A stretch of DNA of 64,000 nt from a virus (Duplodnaviria > Caudoviricetes), in the IMG/VR virus record IMGVR_UViG_3300025030_001449, positions 1 through 64,000 of that record; one strand, written 5' to 3'. Positions 19,501 to 27,805 of the stretch are shown in pieces. Within the stretch, counting starts at the first letter, position 1. The number at the start of each line of letters is the position of its first letter. The notes beneath the pieces are model-generated. The model had not been told where the DNA came from and made no database searches. It was given only the letters and a program-made list of their open reading frames with translations. The position numbers and the translations under genes were made by a program.

Positions 19501-20430
19501 ATGGCAGGACTTTTTCCTAAAGTAATAAATGACAATAGAACATCAATAAATGGAACTGACAATACCATATATATTGGTAGAGTTGTTTCATTATCCAATG
19601 ATATTTTTGATGATTATAGAATTAAAGTTAGATTAAAAGGTATTGATGATAAAACATCAGACAAAGATTTGGTATTATGTGATCCCTTTCTTCCAAAACA
19701 TTTAAAGATTATTCCAAAAGTGGGGGAGTGGGTTAAAATATTATTTTGGAATACTTCTAATAAATCTCAACATAGAGAATGGTGTGGCCCAATTATATCA
19801 CAACCACAAAAATTAAAAAAAGATTCAGAATCACCATTTTCAACACAGACATTATCTATTTTATCCCCGGAAACATCAAAAGAGGTTTTGGCAGACGCAA
19901 GGGGGGTTTATCCAGAAAAAGATGATATCGCATTACAGGGAAGAGATAATACCGATATAATACAAAGAGAAAGAGAAATAGTACTGAGAAGTGGAAAACA
20001 TAAGATTGACGATAATTTGAAATTAAATAAGGATAACCCATCATTTGTTCATCAAAAAATATCAGATGATGGCAAAGTATCAAATACCAATATTATTGCA
20101 AATAAAATTAATTTAATAACACATGATGGTTCCCCCACATTCAGGGGAATGATAAAAGATAAAAATTCAGATGATATTATTGAAATGTTTTCTGGTAAAA
20201 TATCAGATAAAATTCAAAAACAAATAAATGAAAATAGTCATTCTGTTATCTATGGAGATAAAATGGTAGAATTTATTGAATTAATAAAGAAATTCTTATC
20301 AGAGCACAGTCACAGTTATGCGGGCGGGCCCACAAACGAAACTTCACCTGGCTGGGATACTTTACAAAAAATATTAAAATTTGATTTAAATGAAGGTTCA
20401 TTTAGATCAAAAAATGTTAAAATAAATTAA
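19501..20430 (+). CDS. baseplate central spike/hub (gp5/gpV OB-fold-like)
   Basis: GRVVS..D..RIKVR...P.VGEWV OB pattern; C-terminal HSH. Confidence 0.65.
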   Translation: MAGLFPKVINDNRTSINGTDNTIYIGRVVSLSNDIFDDYRIKVRLKGIDDKTSDKDLVLCDPFLPKHLKIIPKVGEWVKILFWNTSNKSQHREWCGPIISQPQKLKKDSESPFSTQTLSILSPETSKEVLADARGVYPEKDDIALQGRDNTDIIQREREIVLRSGKHKIDDNLKLNKDNPSFVHQKISDDGKVSNTNIIANKINLITHDGSPTFRGMIKDKNSDDIIEMFSGKISDKIQKQINENSHSVIYGDKMVEFIELIKKFLSEHSHSYAGGPTNETSPGWDTLQKILKFDLNEGSFRSKNVKIN

Positions 20431-20890: not shown

Positions 20891-21316
20891 TCACATCTTA
20901 CATCTTACATATTCAACAGAGCCACAAACATTTTCAAATATTATATTATCAATATTATATTCTTTTAATTTAGGATTAATAATTTCAATTAAATATCTAT
21001 CAAGTTTTTTATTAAATAATGTAATTGATTTTCTAATTTCTTTTCTTAGTCCTTCATTATTTATTTTTCCAGAAAACAATTTGATTATTTCTTCCTTTTG
21101 TAATTCCAAATATCTTGACACAAAATATCTTCTATCAAATATAATGGTTTCATTTCTAATTGTAAATGGTTCTGTTGGATTATTATCACATATTTCTGTA
21201 AACCATTTATTCTTTCTTATAAAATTATTTAATTCTTGAGAACAAAATATTCTATCATGTTCTTTTAAAACATTATATCCCATATTTTTTATTAGTTGAT
21301 TAATAATATCGCTCAT
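20891..21316 (-). CDS. hypothetical protein
   Basis: coupled to 21313 gene. Confidence 0.55.
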   Translation of the reverse strand: MSDIINQLIKNMGYNVLKEHDRIFCSQELNNFIRKNKWFTEICDNNPTEPFTIRNETIIFDRRYFVSRYLELQKEEIIKLFSGKINNEGLRKEIRKSITLFNKKLDRYLIEIINPKLKEYNIDNIIFENVCGSVEYVRCKM

Positions 21317-21930
21317 TTATTTATTACATCTACAATATTAACATAATAATTATTTTTAGATTTCGTATAAAATTTATAAAATTTATTATTAGTTTTCATT
21401 AAAATGGAATGTTCCATAATAATTTTTGGTTTTATCCCAAAGTCCCATAATTGTAATAAATCATCAAATATTTTTTCTAATTCTTTATCATCCAACCCAT
21501 CCATATCCGATAAATAAATTAAATCTGGTTTAAATCCACTAATATGTGTCGGATATTCAGATATTCTGGAACCATTTATTAATTTCAATTCGTTTGCGTT
21601 ACTTTTAATTATGTTAACATGAAGTATTCTTTCAATAAAATCTTTTATTGTACCTATTGTACTACCATACCAATAACCACCCCTATATAATACATTCAAA
21701 TTTGAGTTATTCTGTAAATATTCACAAATGAAAAGACAAATTGTTGTTGTACTTCTAACTATTCTATTCTTTAAAATAACAGAGATATGTTTATCACAAA
21801 ATGATTCAATCATTTTTTTCTGATTATCATTTAAAATAATTTTATTTTTTTGAGATTGTTTATAATTGAATCTTAGTAAGTAATAATTATTTTCTATATT
21901 GTTTATATATTTGTCTGATAATAAACTCAT
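21313..21930 (-). CDS. degenerate terminase-large-subunit ATPase-like fragment
   Basis: LNDNQKKMI..VILKNRIVRSTT (cf. KxRQxGxTT), LKLINGSRI, IYLSDM (cf. DE). Confidence 0.5.
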   Translation of the reverse strand: MSLLSDKYINNIENNYYLLRFNYKQSQKNKIILNDNQKKMIESFCDKHISVILKNRIVRSTTTICLFICEYLQNNSNLNVLYRGGYWYGSTIGTIKDFIERILHVNIIKSNANELKLINGSRISEYPTHISGFKPDLIYLSDMDGLDDKELEKIFDDLLQLWDFGIKPKIIMEHSILMKTNNKFYKFYTKSKNNYYVNIVDVINK

Positions 21931-21941
21931 TTGATTATGAT

Positions 21942-22613
21942 TTATAAATTATAGTTTACCTTACATTTTGTTTTCTGAAAAACTAAAAAATAACAATGAA
22001 ATTTTCTGGCATGTTGTTGATTTTTATGATTTGGGCTAGACATCCTTGATTTTGCCAATAAAACAAACATGTCTTTTGGATAATATCCAATCTCTATTGC
22101 TTTCTTCATTATTAAATAATGAGAAAAATAATTAATACCACCACTTACAGTATCTTGACATTTAAATATTAAAATCCCATTATCGTTTAATATTCTATAA
22201 AATTCTTTCATTGAATCTTCATAAAATTTCCATAGTTCTGGCATAGAAAAAAAAGAAGAAAATCTTTTATGCATCAAATTACTCCCAGGTTTACTATTTT
22301 TTAAAGACGGGCCGATAGAACAAAGAAATGGCGGGTCAAAAATTAGTGAATTAATACTATCATTATTCAAAGGTAAATTTTTACAATCACATTTTATAAC
22401 ATCTTCTCTTTGGGGTTCAATATCAAATTTATATTTTGGCTCTTTTACTTTTCCGTTCTTATAAAATACTCCTTTTGAAAAACAAGGATCGCAATCAATT
22501 TCTCCAGATGGAATGTGAAGTTTAATAATATTATTAATTATATCTTGTTGACTAAAATTAATTGACTTTATAACGTCCTTACTATGAACTTTATTTAATT
22601 CTAATGTTTCCAT
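21942..22613 (-). CDS. DNA amino-methyltransferase
   Basis: DCDPCFSKGVFY, FDPPF, EFYRIL. Confidence 0.75.
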   Translation of the reverse strand: METLELNKVHSKDVIKSINFSQQDIINNIIKLHIPSGEIDCDPCFSKGVFYKNGKVKEPKYKFDIEPQREDVIKCDCKNLPLNNDSINSLIFDPPFLCSIGPSLKNSKPGSNLMHKRFSSFFSMPELWKFYEDSMKEFYRILNDNGILIFKCQDTVSGGINYFSHYLIMKKAIEIGYYPKDMFVLLAKSRMSSPNHKNQQHARKFHCYFLVFQKTKCKVNYNL

Positions 22614-22634
22614 AATTTTATTTAAAATTTTTAT

Positions 22635-23853
22635 AATATCTTTTTGTATTTATACATATTTATATATAAATGCTAAAGGGTTTTAAATACAGAATTTTGC
22701 CAACAAAGGAACAATCCATTTTGTTAAATAAGCATATTGGATCAAGTCGTTTTGTTTTTAATTTAGCCTTAGAAACTAAGCAAATGGCATACGCTGGCAG
22801 TAAAGTAAATTTATCCTGTTTTGACCTTGTGAAACAATTACCTGATTTGAAAAAAGAATGTGAATGGTTAAAAGAAGTTAATAGCCAGTCCTTACAACAA
22901 TCAATAACTAATTTAGATATGGCATACATAGCCTTCTTCAAAGGGCAAAATGGTTTTCCTACATTCAAAAAAAAATCAAATGGTGGTAGTTTCAATATTC
23001 CACAAAATGTATTGGTTGAAAATAATAAATTAATTATTCCTAAATTCAAAAAAGGAATTAATATTGTTTTGCATCGACCAATTAAAGGAACTATCAGACA
23101 AGCTATAATAAGTAAAACGCCAACAGGTAAATATTTTGCATCTATACTTTGTAAAACATGTGAAGTAATTAAGCCAAAAGCAATAATTAAAGAAAATACA
23201 ACCATTGGTATTGATTTGGGAATAAAAACCTTTTTAGTTGCCTCTGATGGACAGGAAATTGATAATCCTAAATTTCTTCGTAAAGCAATGGCAAGATTAA
23301 AATATGTACAATCCAAATACTCTAAACACAAAGGAAAAAGAACTAAACATCGGTTGGCTATTTTACACGAGAAAGTTGTTAACCAACGTAAAGATTTTCT
23401 ACACAAAATTTCAAGCAAACTAATCAAGAACCACGATAGTTTGGCAATAGAAGATTTATCAGTTTCTAACATGGTAAAAAACCACAAACTTGCACAAGCA
23501 ATTAATGATACTGGCTGGTCAACTTTTGTTACTATGTTAGAATACAAAGCAGAATGGTATGGCAAAAACATTCTTAAAATTGGCAGATTTGAACCATCAA
23601 GCAAGACTTGCTCATGTTGCGGATATATAAACAAAGAATTAACCCTATCAGACAGGGAATGGATATGTCCTAATTGCGGTGCAGTTCTTTCAAGAGATAA
23701 AAATGGTGCCATAAATATTAAATCATTTGCCATTAAAAATTATTTGTCTGTGGAATGCAGACTTAAAAATTGTAACGAATTGCCCCGTATTAATAAGGGA
23801 GTGATGACTTACGAAGCCCAACCCATCGCCTTTGGCGTGGATGGGTAGTTCAC
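22635..23853 (+). mobile_element. tnpB insertion without left-end hairpin, bounded by 9-bp direct repeat
   Basis: TTTAT|AATATCTTT at left; GGGTAGTTCAC|AATATCTTT at right; removal restores the stop of the 24448 gene. Confidence 0.8.
22670..23848 (+). CDS. tnpB: RNA-guided endonuclease TnpB (IS605 OrfB type)
   Basis: KYRILPT..Q HTH, GIDLG, IEDL, CSCC..CPNC, RDKNGAINI. Confidence 0.93.
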   Translation: MLKGFKYRILPTKEQSILLNKHIGSSRFVFNLALETKQMAYAGSKVNLSCFDLVKQLPDLKKECEWLKEVNSQSLQQSITNLDMAYIAFFKGQNGFPTFKKKSNGGSFNIPQNVLVENNKLIIPKFKKGINIVLHRPIKGTIRQAIISKTPTGKYFASILCKTCEVIKPKAIIKENTTIGIDLGIKTFLVASDGQEIDNPKFLRKAMARLKYVQSKYSKHKGKRTKHRLAILHEKVVNQRKDFLHKISSKLIKNHDSLAIEDLSVSNMVKNHKLAQAINDTGWSTFVTMLEYKAEWYGKNILKIGRFEPSSKTCSCCGYINKELTLSDREWICPNCGAVLSRDKNGAINIKSFAIKNYLSVECRLKNCNELPRINKGVMTYEAQPIAFGVDG

Positions 23854-23873
23854 AATATCTTTCCATCATTGAT
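23720..23873 (+). ncRNA. predicted omega/reRNA of second TnpB (5' boundary uncertain); guide begins at 23854
   Basis: right-end hairpin CCCATC-GCC..GGC-GATGGG then TAGTTCAC; similar to right end of first element. Confidence 0.55.
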
Positions 23874-24448
23874 TGCCCCATGTTTTGTGCAGGATAATCA
23901 AAATGAAATGGTTTACCTTTTAATTGAGAATAATAATTTGATATTTTCATTGGATGAAATTCCCCCAAATCTTCAGTTTTTCCATCATTATAAAATATAT
24001 GAATGTCTCCATTTGTATCTGGTCCAGAATAAATTATGGAATCTTGATTATATTTGTCCATTAATTTTTTAATTAATTTTAAAGTTATATTAGAAACAAA
24101 TAATGAAGGTTCACTTCTCCATATTATTTTATCTTCTGGACAATCATCAAGATTATTGACATTTATTTCACATTCTTTCCATTTACCAATTAATCTAATA
24201 AAACCAAGTTTATTTGATCTTAAATCGTGCTTTAATTTTTCAAAATTATCCTTATTTTTATCTGGTAATAATTCTTCTTTCCAAGATGTTAATATAGAAA
24301 ATGAAGTATGTTTACTTTCTTTATAATGTTGATAAACTCTATTTAAAGATGATTCATTTAATTTCTCTAAATTATTTTCATTTCTATATTTTATAATATC
24401 TTGATATGAATGTTTTTCTTTATTTATCAAATAAACATCTAAGCTCAT
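23723..24448 (-). CDS. SAM lyase-like protein; C-terminus replaced by the tnpB insertion
   Basis: ILTSWK..N...L...L....G.WKE...EPSLFV...KYNQDSII pattern like T3 SAMase; last ~43 aa read from element DNA. Confidence 0.55.
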   Translation of the reverse strand: MSLDVYLINKEKHSYQDIIKYRNENNLEKLNESSLNRVYQHYKESKHTSFSILTSWKEELLPDKNKDNFEKLKHDLRSNKLGFIRLIGKWKECEINVNNLDDCPEDKIIWRSEPSLFVSNITLKLIKKLMDKYNQDSIIYSGPDTNGDIHIFYNDGKTEDLGEFHPMKISNYYSQLKGKPFHFDYPAQNMGQSMMERYCELPIHAKGDGLGFVSHHSLINTGQFVTIFKSAFHRQIIFNGK

Positions 24449-24527
24449 ATTATTTTAATTTAATTGTTAAAAAATAGTGTTATAAAAAACAAAGATAAGT
24501 AAAATATTTTAAAAAATCAATAGGTAT

Positions 24528-25334
24528 TTAAATATATATAGTTTCTTCTTTAATTCTTTTATTTATTAAATCACAATATTTTTCAGATATTTCAAATCCT
24601 ATCCATTTTCTGTTTAATTTAATCGCAGCCAAAGCAGAAGTCCCACTTCCCATAAAAGGATCAATAACAATTCCATTTTCTGGACAAAAACATTGAATAA
24701 TATCATACGGTAATTTATCTGGAAAAGTTGCTGGATGTTCATGTTTTAATTTTGTTCCATCGCCACAAGTAATATAATCCCAAATAGTCCCACGACATTT
24801 TGTTATGTTTATCATTTTCTTGGTGGATTTAAATGTGGTGCCATCGGTTTTTCTTGTTGCTCTACCTGTCATAAATTTACCACCGTGTTTAGATAATATT
24901 TTAAGATTTTCTTTATTAAAATATTGAGGTTTATCACCTTTTAAAAAAATGGGAATATATTCATGATCAACTCTAAATCTTTTAGTCCACCATGCACCCT
25001 CAACTCCTTGTTTTTGATATATGCAGCATTCAAATAATTTAAAACCAATATTATCACACCAATCAACAATTGTTCTGAAAGATGTTAAACTTTTTCCAAA
25101 ATTCTTTGTTTGGTCCTGAATTATCATTACTGATATTCCACCATCTTTTAATATTCTGAATAATTGTTTTCCTGTTTCATGTAAATCTAATTCAAACCCA
25201 TTATATTCCCTAATATTATTGTAAGGCGGAGAAAATACGGCAAGATCAATTGAATTATCTGGAATTTGTTTCATTCCTTCCACACAATCTATATTATAAA
25301 CTTTATTTAATTCAAATAAACCCAATTTATCCAT
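24528..25334 (-). CDS. beta-class N4C/N6A DNA methyltransferase
   Basis: FSPPY, HPATFP, DPFMGSGT. Confidence 0.9.
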   Translation of the reverse strand: MDKLGLFELNKVYNIDCVEGMKQIPDNSIDLAVFSPPYNNIREYNGFELDLHETGKQLFRILKDGGISVMIIQDQTKNFGKSLTSFRTIVDWCDNIGFKLFECCIYQKQGVEGAWWTKRFRVDHEYIPIFLKGDKPQYFNKENLKILSKHGGKFMTGRATRKTDGTTFKSTKKMINITKCRGTIWDYITCGDGTKLKHEHPATFPDKLPYDIIQCFCPENGIVIDPFMGSGTSALAAIKLNRKWIGFEISEKYCDLINKRIKEETIYI

Positions 25335-25957
25335 TAATTATATTTTTGTTCATCCAATCCATATATTTCAGTATTTGGTAATAATTCTTTGATTTTTTGT
25401 TGTTCTTTTATGGATAATTTATTGCCATATAAATATAAGTCTTCTAACTGAATTAAACCCCTAATTGAATCTGGTAATGAAAATAAGTTGTTATTATATA
25501 AATATAATTTTTTTAATTGAATTAAATTTCCAATTGAATCTGGAATGGAAGATAAACTGTTACAAGATAAACATAATTCTTCTAATTGAGTTAAATTTCC
25601 AATTGAATCTGGTAAAGAAGGTAATTTATTATAATCTAAATATAATTTTTTTAATTTACTTAATACATCATTCCACAAATCAATTTCTTTTTCAATTAAT
25701 ATATCATTTGTAACTGATTTATTTTTACCATCAATTATTTTTCCATATACTTTAACTAAACATATTCTATTTTTTAAATTACATCGTTTATAATAAAAAA
25801 TATCTTGTATACTTTTATGAAAATGAAATCCAGAATTACACATTTTCAGATCATTTTCATGAATTTTATATCTTTTTCCTATCTCATATTGAAACTTTAT
25901 TCTATCTGTTGGGGCGGTAGATAGATCTGATTTAAAATTTTTATACCCTGTTATCAT
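25334..25957 (-). CDS. phage N-terminal domain + leucine-rich repeats
   Basis: GYK..FQYEIG..C.SGFHF domain; 23-aa LxxLxLxxNxLxSLPDSIGNL repeats (69-bp period). Confidence 0.8.
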   Translation of the reverse strand: MITGYKNFKSDLSTAPTDRIKFQYEIGKRYKIHENDLKMCNSGFHFHKSIQDIFYYKRCNLKNRICLVKVYGKIIDGKNKSVTNDILIEKEIDLWNDVLSKLKKLYLDYNKLPSLPDSIGNLTQLEELCLSCNSLSSIPDSIGNLIQLKKLYLYNNNLFSLPDSIRGLIQLEDLYLYGNKLSIKEQQKIKELLPNTEIYGLDEQKYN

Positions 25958-26029
25958 TTAATTTTAATAAAAAGTTTAATAATTTAATTAAAAAACAAAG
26001 ATAAGTAAAATATTTTAAAAAATCAATAG

Positions 26030-27034
26030 CTATATTTCATTAGCCATATAATCATCCAATTTTAATTTTTTATTGGATTTCAATAATTCACGAATTCCAC
26101 TTAAACCAAAATCTTTTCTTATTTGAGATAAATCAGTATCAGTTGGAATATCAACAACTCTTATTTTATCTTTTAATTGAATGGTTGTATGTAAACGTTT
26201 GTATATCTGGTACATTTCTATCTTTGCATCACCATCAAGAACAATAAAAATATATCCCCCATTCAATTTTTTTATCAAAGTATAGTATAGATGGTCGCTC
26301 ATAACTTTTCCGATCAGGGGAATGATATTAGTTAGAGGATAAAGACCAATCATGTCAAACATGCCCTCACAAATAAATAAAGAATTATTCCAATTAATAT
26401 TATGCTCATTTATTATAAGATTCATTTTTTCAATATTTGGATTTAAATATTTAATTTTTTGACCTGTAAAGCTGCGAGCTACAAAATAATTTAATTTATT
26501 ATTTTCATCATAACTTGGAATTATTATTCTGTTTTCATATCTACCTTCACTACAATATCCCATATTATATTTTTCAATGATTTCATCATTTAATCCCCTC
26601 AATGCCAAATAATTTATTGATTCTTTATAAGATAAATCATTTTTATTTCCATCTTTAAATAAAATTAATTCTCTTGGAAGATAAATGGGTCCCTTATAAT
26701 GTTGATTGTCATCATTGTTATTTTGTTCATCATGTTCATCATCTACATCGACAAGGGACAAATATTGTTTTAATTGAAATTTTGTGCCTCGTTCTCGTAT
26801 TAATTTCATCAAGGATCCATGAGTACCATTAGTTTCTGAACAAGACCAGCAATTGTACTGGTATCTCTTTAAACTCACTTCTAAATTTCCTTTTCCATCA
26901 AGATGATTTAATCCTTTAATTTCATAACTACATGTTGGACAATCAAATCCGTACTGCAATTGAGAATGATTTTTCTTTGTAGGTTCACCCAAAATGCTGA
27001 TAATTAAAGAATATAATGGATTAATTTGTATCAT
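26030..27034 (-). CDS. DNA primase (Zn-binding domain + TOPRIM)
   Basis: CPTC..CWSC, YL..RG, RIIIP, VARS, KYLN, CEGMFD, LDGDA. Confidence 0.85.
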   Translation of the reverse strand: MIQINPLYSLIISILGEPTKKNHSQLQYGFDCPTCSYEIKGLNHLDGKGNLEVSLKRYQYNCWSCSETNGTHGSLMKLIRERGTKFQLKQYLSLVDVDDEHDEQNNNDDNQHYKGPIYLPRELILFKDGNKNDLSYKESINYLALRGLNDEIIEKYNMGYCSEGRYENRIIIPSYDENNKLNYFVARSFTGQKIKYLNPNIEKMNLIINEHNINWNNSLFICEGMFDMIGLYPLTNIIPLIGKVMSDHLYYTLIKKLNGGYIFIVLDGDAKIEMYQIYKRLHTTIQLKDKIRVVDIPTDTDLSQIRKDFGLSGIRELLKSNKKLKLDDYMANEI

Positions 27035-27052
27035 AAAAATTAAATATTATTT

Positions 27053-27805
27053 TTAAATATATGTGCCATGATAATTAATTATTTTATAAATATGTTCAAA
27101 AAATTCACTATAACTAATATTCATTTTCATTCTATTACAAAATTTACAACATGGAACACAATTTTCTATTACATATCCTTTTAAATTATCTTTTCTATCT
27201 ATTCCATTATAGATATACTTACTCCATTCATGTTTACTGATACTATTACTATATTGTATTTGTAATGGTTCTAATCCACAATAATAACAATTTTGTAATG
27301 TTAATTTTTTAAATTGTTCTTTTGTTAGATTAAATTTTAAATTTCTAATTTTTGCACTTCTAATATACTGAGTAAATAAACTATTTAATCCCGATTCTCC
27401 CTTATTTATTCTTCTATATGTATTACCTTTATGTGCCTTTGAAGACATTTCTCTTTGTAAACAACTACAACTTTTTACCTTTCCGCTTTTTAAATGATGA
27501 GCTCCAACAATTTTAATTTTACCACAGTCACATTGGCATTTCCATAATGTATTATTAAATTTATCTTTTCCTATATATTTTAATGCTGTTAATCTATTAA
27601 ATTTTTGTCCAGTTAAATCAAATATTGTAAACCCACCTCTTGGATCTTTTATTTTTGTGATACCGTTCTTTGTTCTTTTTATTAATCCTGTCTCTGTTTC
27701 TCCAGTAATGATCCATTTTCCATCTTTTCTGGGCTTCGTGTATTTCTTCTTCGGTAAAATATTTTCTTTTTCTTCCCATTGTTGTCTAATGTTTATTTCT
27801 TTCAT
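27053..27805 (-). CDS. HNH-type homing endonuclease
   Basis: DLTGQKFNRL..WKCQCDCG..SCSC; CYYCG..NGIDRKDN..GY..NCVPCC..CN. Confidence 0.85.
   Translation of the reverse strand: MKEINIRQQWEEKENILPKKKYTKPRKDGKWIITGETETGLIKRTKNGITKIKDPRGGFTIFDLTGQKFNRLTALKYIGKDKFNNTLWKCQCDCGKIKIVGAHHLKSGKVKSCSCLQREMSSKAHKGNTYRRINKGESGLNSLFTQYIRSAKIRNLKFNLTKEQFKKLTLQNCYYCGLEPLQIQYSNSISKHEWSKYIYNGIDRKDNLKGYVIENCVPCCKFCNRMKMNISYSEFFEHIYKIINYHGTYI

What the first reader, a model, noticed from the sequence alone, without database searches (positions are those of the whole stretch)
22614..23873. TnpB behaving like an RNA-guided homing endonuclease: no left end, phage late promoter, and self-matching TAM + seed in its own promoter
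Seen: deleting 22635-23853 restores ...MMERYYKNFK* for the 24448 gene, 4 nt before the 22613 start, which fixes the empty site. Only 35 bp precede tnpB; they contain no hairpin and two TATTTATA motifs. The first 9 bp (AATATCTTT, 22635-22643) equal the first 9 guide bases (23854-23862) and follow TTTAT. RuvC residues are intact. Established: IS200/605 elements need a left hairpin and make no target duplication, and TnpB cuts TAM + guide-matched empty sites. Inference: the gene spreads by TnpA-independent homing between co-infecting phages. The 9-nt seed match next to its promoter could allow binding without cutting, giving RNA-guided autorepression.
Basis: partly seen in the sequence, partly recalled or inferred. 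Interest (0 to 1): 0.85.

Follow-up and report, generated by a model that had tools for sequence, protein, structure and literature searches.

The report
Left-end-less TnpB element in phage
A giant groundwater phage carries an RNA-guided nuclease gene (tnpB with its guide RNA) that has lost the DNA hairpin its transposase would need, and a 9-base scar at its left edge suggests it was copied in by break repair rather than by transposition.

Summary
The sequence facts hold. An intact tnpB (22670-23848) with a covariation-supported guide-RNA scaffold ends at 23853. Its left edge abuts TTTAT, the family's target-adjacent motif (TTTAY in 40 of 48 relatives that keep a left end). Only 35 bp precede tnpB and they form no hairpin, whereas most relatives carry a 105-140 nt left end with one. 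AATATCTTT flanks the element on both sides.

Removing 22635-23853 in silico gives a 203-aa gene ending 4 nt before the next start codon.

My reading: this is an IS200/IS605-family tnpB-guide RNA element that a Y1 TnpA transposase can no longer move. The left 9-mer is most simply the start of the empty target, joined through a CTTT microhomology to the interior of the left end. That makes it a repair scar between an empty and an occupied allele, as imprecise TnpB-driven homing would leave.

TnpA-independent TnpB drive has been shown for plasmids and proposed for co-infecting phages, so the idea is not new. This would be a natural footprint of it.

The autorepression idea is physically possible, but TAM-plus-seed copies do not recur in 84 related loci. 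'Late' promoter is unsupported. No empty allele was found.

The parts
22630..22634 (+). TTTAT, the target-adjacent motif (TAM) directly left of the element
   Evidence: 40 of 48 relatives with a left end have TTTAC (25) or TTTAT (15) 7-8 nt before the AGCGWAA left-end motif.
22635..22643 (+). Left copy of the 9-bp direct repeat AATATCTTT. Read here as retained target bases 1-9, with the last four (CTTT) shared with the left-end interior as microhomology
   Evidence: Identical to 23854-23862. TAM plus this 9-mer is unique in the 91 kb record. Relatives have ...AAACTTTTGTAT at the aligned place, so AATAT is not left-end-like while CTTT is.
22640..22669 (+). Remnant of the left-end interior and tnpB leader, with two TATTTATA motifs (22647-22654, 22657-22664). 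The hairpin and the -33 TTTG box of relatives are missing
   Evidence: The last 20-35 nt align to 12 of the 26 relatives' left ends far above random genome segments (0 of 300 controls reach the score). Alignment. No hairpin.
22670..23848 (+). tnpB, 392 aa, intact RuvC triad D182/E261/D343 and zinc-finger cysteines
   Evidence: PHROG 506 at 3.7e-117.
23743..23853 (+). Structured 3' part of the omegaRNA scaffold and right end, overlapping the tnpB 3' end. Terminal hairpin about 23816-23847; the element ends ...TAGTTCAC at 23853
   Evidence: In the consensus structure of 47 sequences, 18 of 24 pairs have compensatory changes. The right-end motif is conserved and flanks diverge right after it. Fold -10.9 kcal/mol, z -2.6.
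23854..23873 (+). Guide-encoding flank (the target sequence). Its first 9 nt are the right copy of the direct repeat
   Evidence: The position directly after the right end is where the ISDra2 reRNA guide lies (PMC8612924, passages read). The 14-mer and 16-mer are unique in the record.
23854..24448 (-). 5' 198 codons of the interrupted gene (weak S-AdoMet-lyase-like hit, PHROG 30877). In the occupied allele it reads on into the right end for 43 more codons
   Evidence: Pfam PF23780 at E 5.8e-06 and 26.7 bits, below the cut-off of 28. PHROG 30877 at 4.2e-09, profile length 209.
22618..22634 (-). Severed 3' end of the interrupted gene (last codons plus stop at 22618-22620)
   Evidence: In-silico removal. 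Its likeness to the left-end interior is no more than that of AT-only 23-mers: 83 of 500 controls score at least as high.
21942..22613 (-). DNA methyltransferase gene that would follow the interrupted gene by 4 nt in the empty allele
   Evidence: Pfam PF01555. PHROG 24333 at 1.2e-59.

Best explanation
This is a non-autonomous IS200/IS605-family element, tnpB plus its omegaRNA. It sits at a canonical TTTAY site in the last codons of a phage gene.

It has an intact nuclease, an intact guide-RNA scaffold and an intact right end. It has lost the left-end hairpin, so a Y1 TnpA could no longer excise or move it.

The 9 bp right after the TAM are the first 9 bases of the empty target. The left part of the locus is therefore 'empty allele up to +9', and it then jumps into the interior of the left end at a CTTT microhomology.

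The simplest origin is a double-strand break in an empty allele that was repaired from an occupied allele, with the left junction closed by microhomology instead of full homology. TnpB of this type cuts 15-21 bp from the TAM, so it is the likely source of the break. This would be an imprecise RNA-guided homing event.

The resulting copy is immune to excision. It can persist or spread only through TnpB cutting empty alleles in co-replicating or co-infecting genomes.

The TAM plus 9-nt copy is a by-product of that event. It is too short to be cut, and any binding there would be incidental.

Shown: the anatomy, the family membership, the TAM, the loss of the left end and the uniqueness of the repeat. 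Inferred: the break, its cause and the repair route.
For: - Intact TnpB and structured scaffold.
- Right boundary fixed by relatives.
- TAM TTTAY in 40 of 48 relatives, and present at the window's junction.
- Relatives carry a hairpin-bearing left end of about 105-140 nt; the window has 35 nt without a hairpin.
- Left-end homology starts at about 22640 (CTTTT...). The five bases before it are unlike relatives' left ends but equal target bases 1-5.
- TAM plus the 9-mer is unique in the record. A guide prefix of 9 or more is rare in controls, 0.18%.
- Removal restores a 203-aa product that fits the 209-position PHROG profile and sits 4 nt before the next gene.
- The left flank is not left-end-derived beyond AT-richness.
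- The same junction lacking the left end lies on identical contigs of three other runs from three studies, so it is not an assembly artefact.
- Literature, passages read: ISDra2 TnpB cuts 15-21 bp from the TAM, and TnpA insertion makes no target duplication (PMC8612924). TnpB-dependent, TnpA-independent spread of IS605 among plasmids (PMC11870625). 'Non-restorative homing' into co-infecting phages proposed (PMC13565253).
Against: - No empty allele, no allele with a full left end and no close phage relative was found, so neither donor nor recipient is observed.
- The closest TnpB is only 81-83% identical, so the parental left end is unknown and the CTTT microhomology is inferred from distant copies.
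- With intact homology on both sides, ordinary recombination should beat microhomology joining, so this product must be rare or needs a donor with a different left flank.
- AATATCTTT is a common 9-mer (21 copies), and a TAM plus 8-nt copy lies by chance or otherwise at 24390.
- Other relatives without a left end mostly show no TAM-plus-prefix at their left edge. At TTAY sites only 4 of 314 had a prefix of 5 or more, the window included, against about 1 expected.
- Nothing here shows that the nuclease is active or the guide is made. All 16 listed runs are DNA; no RNA run was found.
Confidence: 0.5

Rival explanations
1. Decaying insertion sequence. The element inserted once by ordinary TnpA transposition at TTTAT and later lost about 75 nt of its left end by an unrelated deletion. 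The 9-bp identity with the right flank is coincidence, and tnpB is a passenger that no longer spreads.
For: - Loss of the left end is common in this family. Of 102 non-redundant relatives, 24 lack both the left-end motif and tnpA by pattern; at least six of the 24 showed variant hairpins by eye, so roughly 15-18 truly lack it.
- Most of those show no TAM-plus-prefix.
- AATATCTTT is common in this AT-rich genome, and a TAM plus 8-nt copy exists 540 bp away.
- Flanking direct repeats are not generally enriched in 177 loci.
Against: - The deletion would have to start exactly at the TAM/element border and leave five bases equal to target bases 1-5 followed by four equal to bases 6-9.
- The empirical chance of this 9-mer at one given position is about 1.2e-4.
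- tnpB, the scaffold and the right end are all intact, not decayed.
Confidence: 0.22
2. The TAM plus 9-nt seed copy next to the tnpB promoter is a functional operator. The TnpB-omegaRNA complex binds it without cutting and represses its own transcription, on top of spread by homing.
For: - The site, TTTAT plus a 9-nt match, lies 40 to 27 nt upstream of the start codon, just upstream of the two TATTTATA motifs.
- Nuclease-active ISDge10 TnpB with a 10-nt guide engages targets without cutting. Reporter signal peaked at 10 nt among guide lengths 8-20 (PMC13507860, passages read).
- Nuclease-dead TnpB relatives (TldR) act as RNA-guided repressors (10.1101/2023.11.30.569447, search listing and start of abstract only).
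Against: - No recurrence. In the other 84 loci the longest guide-prefix match upstream follows the mismatched control, and the window is the only 9.
- The duplex would have one G:C pair in nine, and the same paper reports stronger effects at higher GC.
- A full-length guide with only 9 matched bases was not what that study tested.
- The site is explained as a repair by-product without any selection.
Confidence: 0.12
3. The left boundary is misplaced. The AT-rich 22612-22634 is itself left-end interior, the element reaches to the methylase start codon, and neither the TAM nor the restored gene end is real.
For: MAFFT aligns 22612-22634 with relatives' ATAATTATTTTAAATAAATTTTG block. The extended alignment scores above random genome segments, with 8 of 400 reaching it.
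Against: - With AT-matched controls, 83 of 500 random segments score as well.
- A left-end profile does not detect the region at all.
- The TAM, the unique TAM plus 9-mer and the clean restored gene end would all be coincidences.
- Contigs in two other runs diverge leftwards at 22618 and 22620, the predicted stop codon.
Confidence: 0.05

Closest known systems
ISDra2-type IS200/IS605 TnpB-omegaRNA (reRNA) elements
   Same: - TnpB domain set, with 1e-66 similarity to ISDra2 TnpB structures.
- Guide RNA scaffold overlapping the 3' end of tnpB and ending at the right end.
- Guide taken from the flank.
- A 5-nt TAM that equals the insertion site.
   Different: - No left-end hairpin.
- No tnpA in the available record.
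- A 9-bp flanking direct repeat, although this family makes no target duplication.
- TAM TTTAY instead of TTGAT.
- Resident in a large phage genome.
TnpB as gene drive of IS605 in plasmids (Mears et al. 2025 preprint) and 'transposon non-restorative homing' (2026 review)
   Same: Proposed mode of spread: TnpB cuts the orthologous empty site in a co-resident replicon and repair copies the element, without TnpA.
   Different: Those are engineered plasmid assays with complete elements. Here it is a natural phage copy that could only spread this way, with a junction that looks like an imprecise product. Nothing was measured here.
Free-standing homing endonuclease genes of T-even phages (Seg, Mob)
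   Same: A nuclease gene sits between or inside conserved phage genes and would cut the allele that lacks it during co-infection. This phage also has a free-standing HNH endonuclease nearby (27053-27805).
   Different: Target recognition is by RNA guide plus TAM instead of by protein. Self versus non-self is decided by the presence of the insertion itself.
TldR, nuclease-dead TnpB-like RNA-guided repressors
   Same: A TnpB-family protein with a TAM-flanked partial guide match close to a promoter.
   Different: The RuvC triad is intact here. The match is to its own promoter region, is only 9 nt long, and is not conserved in relatives.
TnpB-only IStrons and other solo tnpB copies
   Same: tnpB and guide RNA are kept intact after loss of TnpA-dependent mobility.
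   Different: No group I intron was found: Rfam gave no match in 22400-24100 apart from one chance-level snoRNA hit. The element interrupts the gene end instead of being spliced out.

Membership tests
IS200/IS605 (TnpB-omegaRNA element) | TnpB with RuvC D-E-D triad and zinc finger | tested here: met
   Pfam PF01385, PF07282, PF12323. PDB 8EXA/8H1J at E about 1e-66. D182, E261, D343 and CxxC at 314 and 333.
IS200/IS605 (TnpB-omegaRNA element) | Right end with subterminal hairpin and conserved cleavage-site motif; structured guide-RNA scaffold overlapping the tnpB 3' end | tested here: met
   The end ...GT(T/C)CAC is found in 35 of 35 loci printed, directly after the ORF's stop in 32 and 15-26 nt further on in 3. 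18 of 24 pairs covary in 47 sequences. Hairpin fold z -2.6.
IS200/IS605 (TnpB-omegaRNA element) | Left end with subterminal hairpin recognised by TnpA | tested here: not met
   No hairpin in 22590-22669. No left-end motif. Relatives have one.
IS200/IS605 (TnpB-omegaRNA element) | Insertion 3' of a short target motif that also serves as TAM | tested here: met
   TTTAT at 22630-22634. TTTAY in 40 of 48 relatives.
IS200/IS605 (TnpB-omegaRNA element) | No target-site duplication | tested here: not met
   A 9-bp direct repeat flanks the element. Read here as a secondary repair scar, not a transposition product.
IS200/IS605 (TnpB-omegaRNA element) | Y1 (HUH) TnpA in the element or elsewhere in the genome | tested here: inconclusive
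   PF01797 has no match in the 91 kb record, but the record is about 28% complete. TnpA lies next to tnpB in 16 of 102 relatives.
RNA-guided homing element (non-restorative homing) | Nuclease cuts the empty allele (TAM plus guide match) and spares the occupied one | not testable with these tools
   The predicted empty site has TTTAT plus a 20-nt perfect match. The occupied allele has only 9 matched bases. No cleavage data.
RNA-guided homing element (non-restorative homing) | Presence/absence polymorphism at the same site among related genomes | tested here: inconclusive
   No related phage with this gene was found. Contigs of four runs show only the occupied allele, but contigs drop rare variants.
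TldR-like RNA-guided repressor | Inactivated RuvC site | tested here: not met
   D182, E261 and D343 are present.
TldR-like RNA-guided repressor | Conserved guide match to a promoter across relatives | tested here: not met
   In the other 84 loci, guide-prefix matches upstream equal the control distribution.

The most novel reading that the evidence does not exclude
The locus preserves a natural scar of RNA-guided homing in a phage. A TnpB cut in an empty allele was repaired from an occupied genome during co-replication or co-infection. This produced a tnpB-guide RNA cassette without a left end that now behaves as a pure RNA-guided homing endonuclease gene. The leftover TAM plus 9-nt target stub doubles as a weak operator that damps tnpB expression once the site is occupied.
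Probability: 0.12. Interest if true: 0.75.

Novelty: new variant of a known kind. Interest (0 to 1): 0.45.

Why it matters
TnpB is known to restore its transposon after excision. In engineered plasmid assays it also drives IS605 into empty copies without TnpA. A 2026 review lists spread into co-infecting phages as possible but awaiting validation.

A natural phage copy that cannot be moved by TnpA, yet keeps nuclease, guide scaffold, TAM and a perfect match to its own empty site, is the kind of element that idea predicts. Its left junction offers a concrete, testable signature: the TAM, then the first bases of the target, then a truncated left end.

If the signature holds up in more genomes, it would let TnpB-driven homing events be read from sequence alone. 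It would also show a route from transposon accessory gene to free-standing RNA-guided homing gene.

If it does not hold up, the locus is one more decaying insertion sequence.

Tried and rejected
1. Looking for the empty allele or a close phage relative. All attempts failed.
- Megablast of 21000-26000 against 50,697 phage records: no match.
- The interrupted gene's product in viral contigs: 6 pattern matches, none a relative.
- The 5.8-billion protein search gave only the same occupied allele (P0002) and one 35%-identical, 323-aa protein.
- Five loci with homologues of the downstream methylase and 77 with the upstream methylase hold no homologue of the interrupted gene.
- An exact 24-nt right-flank pattern had 0 matches in viral contigs.

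2. Sequencing runs. 16 runs were listed, and contigs of X6, X7, X9 and X12 were laid.
- No contig skips 22635-23853, and no contig shows a full left end.
- All are low-depth Logan contigs, which drop rare variants, so this says nothing about absence.
- All 16 listed runs are DNA; no RNA run was found, so expression of the guide could not be examined.

3. Closer tnpB relatives. The parental left end is therefore unknown.

4. Left-end profile search of the genome (nhmmer). The remnant at 22635-22669 is too short and AT-rich to be reported, so anchored pairwise alignments with controls were used instead.

5. Left flank as left-end interior. It looked significant against random genome segments (8 of 400) but not against AT-matched ones (83 of 500). 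Rejected.

6. Recurrence of the scar.
- L163 (7 nt after TTTAT at the very start of an otherwise complete left end), L094 (6 nt after GTTAT; the locus also has two right-end-like ends in tandem and an inverted copy of the motif downstream) and L035 (5 nt) are hints only.
- The general test for flanking direct repeats in 177 loci shows no clear excess: 11 nt or more in 11 of 177 against 3.7% in controls, and several of the 11 are the expected likeness between left-end and right-end hairpins.

7. 'Late' promoter. Of the nine motif-bearing genes scanned (plus one gene without the motif, 19501-20430), only the HNH endonuclease got a PHROG name. The Pfam scan covered eight of those nine (not the HNH gene) plus two genes without the motif and gave one sub-threshold hit. 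Timing cannot be assigned.

8. Rfam search of 22400-24100: only a chance-level snoRNA hit at E 0.21.

9. The sigma-70-type promoter scan gave no more sites than shuffles, 13 against 15.3.

Supplementary files of papers were not opened; those of PMC13507860 and PMC11870625 may hold guide-length and junction data that bear on the binding and repair claims.
Full report
**What is there**

The window is the first 64 kb of a 91,173-bp virus record with 25.5% G+C, which CheckV rates 28% complete. It is therefore probably part of a very large phage genome. Runs that hold it are groundwater and soil metagenomes.

At 22670-23848 on the plus strand lies a 392-aa ORF.
- It carries the full TnpB domain set: HTH_OrfB_IS605, OrfB_IS605 and Cas12f1-like TNB.
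- It matches the solved ISDra2 TnpB structures at E about 1e-66.
- It keeps D182, E261 and D343 and both CxxC pairs.
- It is the only tnpB copy in the record.

The flanking genes all run on the minus strand.
- 24448 downwards: a gene with a weak S-AdoMet-lyase-like hit, 26.7 bits against a cut-off of 28, and a match to PHROG 30877.
- 21942-22613 and 24528-25334: two DNA methyltransferase genes.
- Further on: a primase gene and an HNH endonuclease gene.

**Checking the observation**

- TTTAT is at 22630-22634. AATATCTTT is at 22635-22643 and 23854-23862. Two TATTTATA lie in the 35 bp before the start codon.
- Removing 22635-23853 in silico gives a 203-aa product. Its stop at 22618-22620 lies 4 nt before the methylase start.
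- Because of the repeat, any removal register within the nine bases gives the same product.
- The 203 aa fit the 209-position PHROG profile.

**Boundaries, from relatives**

I collected tnpB relatives from three sources: 78 viral loci, 80 metagenome loci and 80 genome loci. The closest are only 81-83% identical in protein. Near relatives sit in large viral contigs and in Bacteroidota and Saccharibacteria-labelled MAGs.

*Right end.* The sequence ...GGGTAGTTCAC follows or overlaps the stop codon, and the flanks diverge immediately after it. The end ...GT(T/C)CAC was found in 35 of 35 loci printed. This fixes 23853 as the last base of the element. The 110 nt before it form a structure in which 18 of 24 consensus pairs show compensatory changes across 47 sequences. 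The guide-RNA scaffold is therefore real and intact in the window.

*Left end.* Relatives have the following layout:
- TTTAC or TTTAT;
- 6-7 variable bases;
- GAGCGWAAAGCCC, a hairpin of about 12 bp, and ATGWAAGCGAC;
- about 65 AT-rich bases containing a Bacteroidota-style TTTG-N19-TAnnTTTG promoter (the consensus is recalled; the spacing is read);
- the start codon.

TTTAY precedes the left end in 40 of 48 loci that carry the AGCGWAA motif, 25 with TTTAC and 15 with TTTAT. It is therefore the family's insertion motif and TAM.

Of 102 non-redundant relatives with at least 170 nt upstream:
- 62 have the left-end motif;
- 16 have a Y1 tnpA gene next to tnpB;
- 24 have neither by pattern. By eye at least six of these have variant hairpins, leaving roughly 15-18 copies that truly lack a left end.

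The window belongs to this last class. Its 35 or 80 upstream bases do not fold. Only the last roughly 30 bases, from CTTTTTGTAT on, are homologous to relatives' left-end interiors.

**Is the left boundary really at TTTAT?**

A multiple alignment lined up 22612-22634 with the AT-rich interior of relatives' left ends. The extended alignment beat random genome segments, with 8 of 400 reaching its score. With AT-matched controls, however, 83 of 500 did as well, so this likeness is explained by composition.

- the TAM at the junction;
- the clean restored gene end;
- contigs in two other runs that diverge leftwards at 22618 and 22620, the predicted stop codon.

**What the nine bases are**

AATATCTTT is a common word here, with 21 copies on both strands. 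TTTAY plus the nine bases occurs only at the junction. The 14-mer and 16-mer of the guide are unique.

Relatives have ...TTAAACTTTTGTAT where the window has ...ATAATATCTTTTTGTAT. The five bases AATAT are therefore not left-end sequence, while CTTT is shared by both.

Read from the left, the locus is the empty allele up to target base 9 and then continues inside the left end. It is a recombinant between an empty and an occupied allele with a 4-nt microhomology.

IS200/IS605 transposition makes no target duplication, and ISDra2 TnpB cuts 15-21 bp from the TAM leaving 5' overhangs (PMC8612924, passages read). A cut in an empty allele, some trimming, copying from an occupied allele starting at the homologous right flank, and closure of the left side by microhomology would give exactly this structure.

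The alternative is ordinary insertion followed by a deletion that happens to start at the border and happens to leave nine bases equal to the target. That needs a coincidence of about 1e-4 at that position.

I put the scar reading at about 0.5, the decay reading at about 0.2, and spread the rest over the other rivals.

**Does the TAM-plus-seed copy recur?**

- In 85 non-redundant loci with a defined 20-nt guide, the longest guide prefix found anywhere in 150 nt upstream has the same distribution as in 7138 mismatched guide/upstream pairs. The window's 9 is the maximum.
- At TTAY sites, prefixes of 5 or more occur at 4 of 314 sites against about 1 expected: the window at 9, L163 at 7, L094 at 6 and L035 at 5.
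- L163 and L094 resemble the window's layout but are ambiguous.
- A blind search for flanking direct repeats in 177 loci shows no clear excess.

The copy is therefore not a conserved design feature, and an evolved autoregulatory operator is not supported.

It remains physically possible. Wild-type ISDge10 TnpB with a 10-nt guide engages DNA without cutting (PMC13507860, passages read). However, nine bases with one G:C pair next to eleven mismatches is a weak site, and that configuration was not tested there.

**Promoter**

TATTTATA, usually TATTTATAtaaaa, lies within 80 nt upstream of 21 of 92 long ORFs in the sense direction, against 1 of 92 for its reverse complement. 23 of its 59 occurrences are followed within 52 nt by an ORF of 60 aa or more. 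It is a genuine upstream motif of this phage, and tnpB has two copies.

'Late' cannot be claimed. The motif also precedes the primase and the HNH endonuclease genes, and the other motif-bearing genes have no annotation.

The copy nearest the start codon is also conserved in relatives from unrelated genomes (ATATTTATAATTG before ATG). It is therefore inherited and was not acquired here. What the window has lost with the left end is the -33 box of the relatives' promoter.

**Population data**

Identical contigs spanning the left junction occur in X7, X9 and X12, and across the right junction in X6 and X7. The junction lacking the left end is therefore real and is found in three further studies. 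No contig skips the element, but these are low-depth contigs.

No Y1 transposase gene is in the record, which is incomplete.

**Comparison with what is known**

- TnpB-driven restoration of excised IS200/IS605 copies is established. I saw Meers et al. 2023 only as a reference in the review and as the start of the preprint abstract in a search listing.
- TnpB-dependent, TnpA-independent spread among plasmids is reported (PMC11870625, passages read).
- A 2026 review names 'non-restorative homing' into co-infecting phages as a possibility awaiting validation (PMC13565253, passages read).
- TnpB genes in large phages have been noted (PMC12607003, passages read).
- My four searches found no description of a phage tnpB without a left end carrying a target-prefix scar. 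That covers only the held library.

The locus is therefore a variant of a known kind. Its interest lies in the junction as a possible sequence signature of homing.

**Verdict**

The homing interpretation is plausible and given a concrete mechanistic footprint, but it is not demonstrated. The autorepression and 'late promoter' claims are not supported.

Noticed in passing
window, whole record (examples 17021, 18891, 20460, 27828, 36897, 42227, 54214): TATTTATA(taaaa) is an orientation-biased upstream motif. It lies sense-upstream of 21 of 92 long ORFs against 1 of 92 in antisense, typically 3-40 nt before the start codon. It is likely this phage's promoter or leader element. Nearly all the genes it precedes have no PHROG or Pfam match.
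   Followed up: partly
window 24390-24402 (+): A second TTTAT followed by 8 bases of the guide (AATATCTT) lies inside the 5' part of the interrupted gene, about 540 bp from the right end. It is the only other TAM plus 8-nt site in the 91 kb record. It could be chance in AT-rich DNA, or a partial off-target site.
   Followed up: partly
window 22658-22671: ATTTATATATAAAT, which overlaps the tnpB start codon, is a perfect palindrome. A near-copy of the phage upstream motif therefore also faces leftwards towards the methylase gene that the insertion cut off from its upstream gene.
   Followed up: no
window 23762-23746 and 23657-23643 (-): Two terminator-like hairpins with T-runs lie on the minus strand inside the tnpB 3' region (0.6 expected). 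The first is the complement of an omegaRNA stem. They face read-through from the interrupted gene and could make the insertion polar on the methylase operon.
   Followed up: no
window 22618 and 22620 (runs X7, X9): Contigs in two other runs match the window rightwards from the predicted stop codon of the interrupted gene but carry unrelated sequence to the left (loose ends). They may be variant genomes with a different downstream gene.
   Followed up: no
window 27053-27805 (-): A free-standing HNH / endonuclease VII-like gene (PHROG 374 at 9e-21) with the same upstream motif lies next to a DNA primase gene (26030-27034). It is a second candidate homing-type nuclease in the neighbourhood.
   Followed up: no
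L005 1067-4160 versus L011 2282-5408: Two viral contigs share the element plus 1.8 kb of right flank at 98% identity, but their left flanks are unrelated, and the break falls exactly at the left-end terminus. L011 also has an extra 33 nt ending in TTCAC between the right end and the flank. This fits exchange of flanks by recombination between copies, or one-sided transfer.
   Followed up: partly
L037 3001-5104; L013 6395-7147; L094 about 2090-2122: In L037, tnpB is split by about 940 bp (residues 1-261 and 265-392 lie apart). L013 has a second tnpB copy 2.2 kb downstream. L094 has two right-end-like ends in tandem.
   Followed up: no
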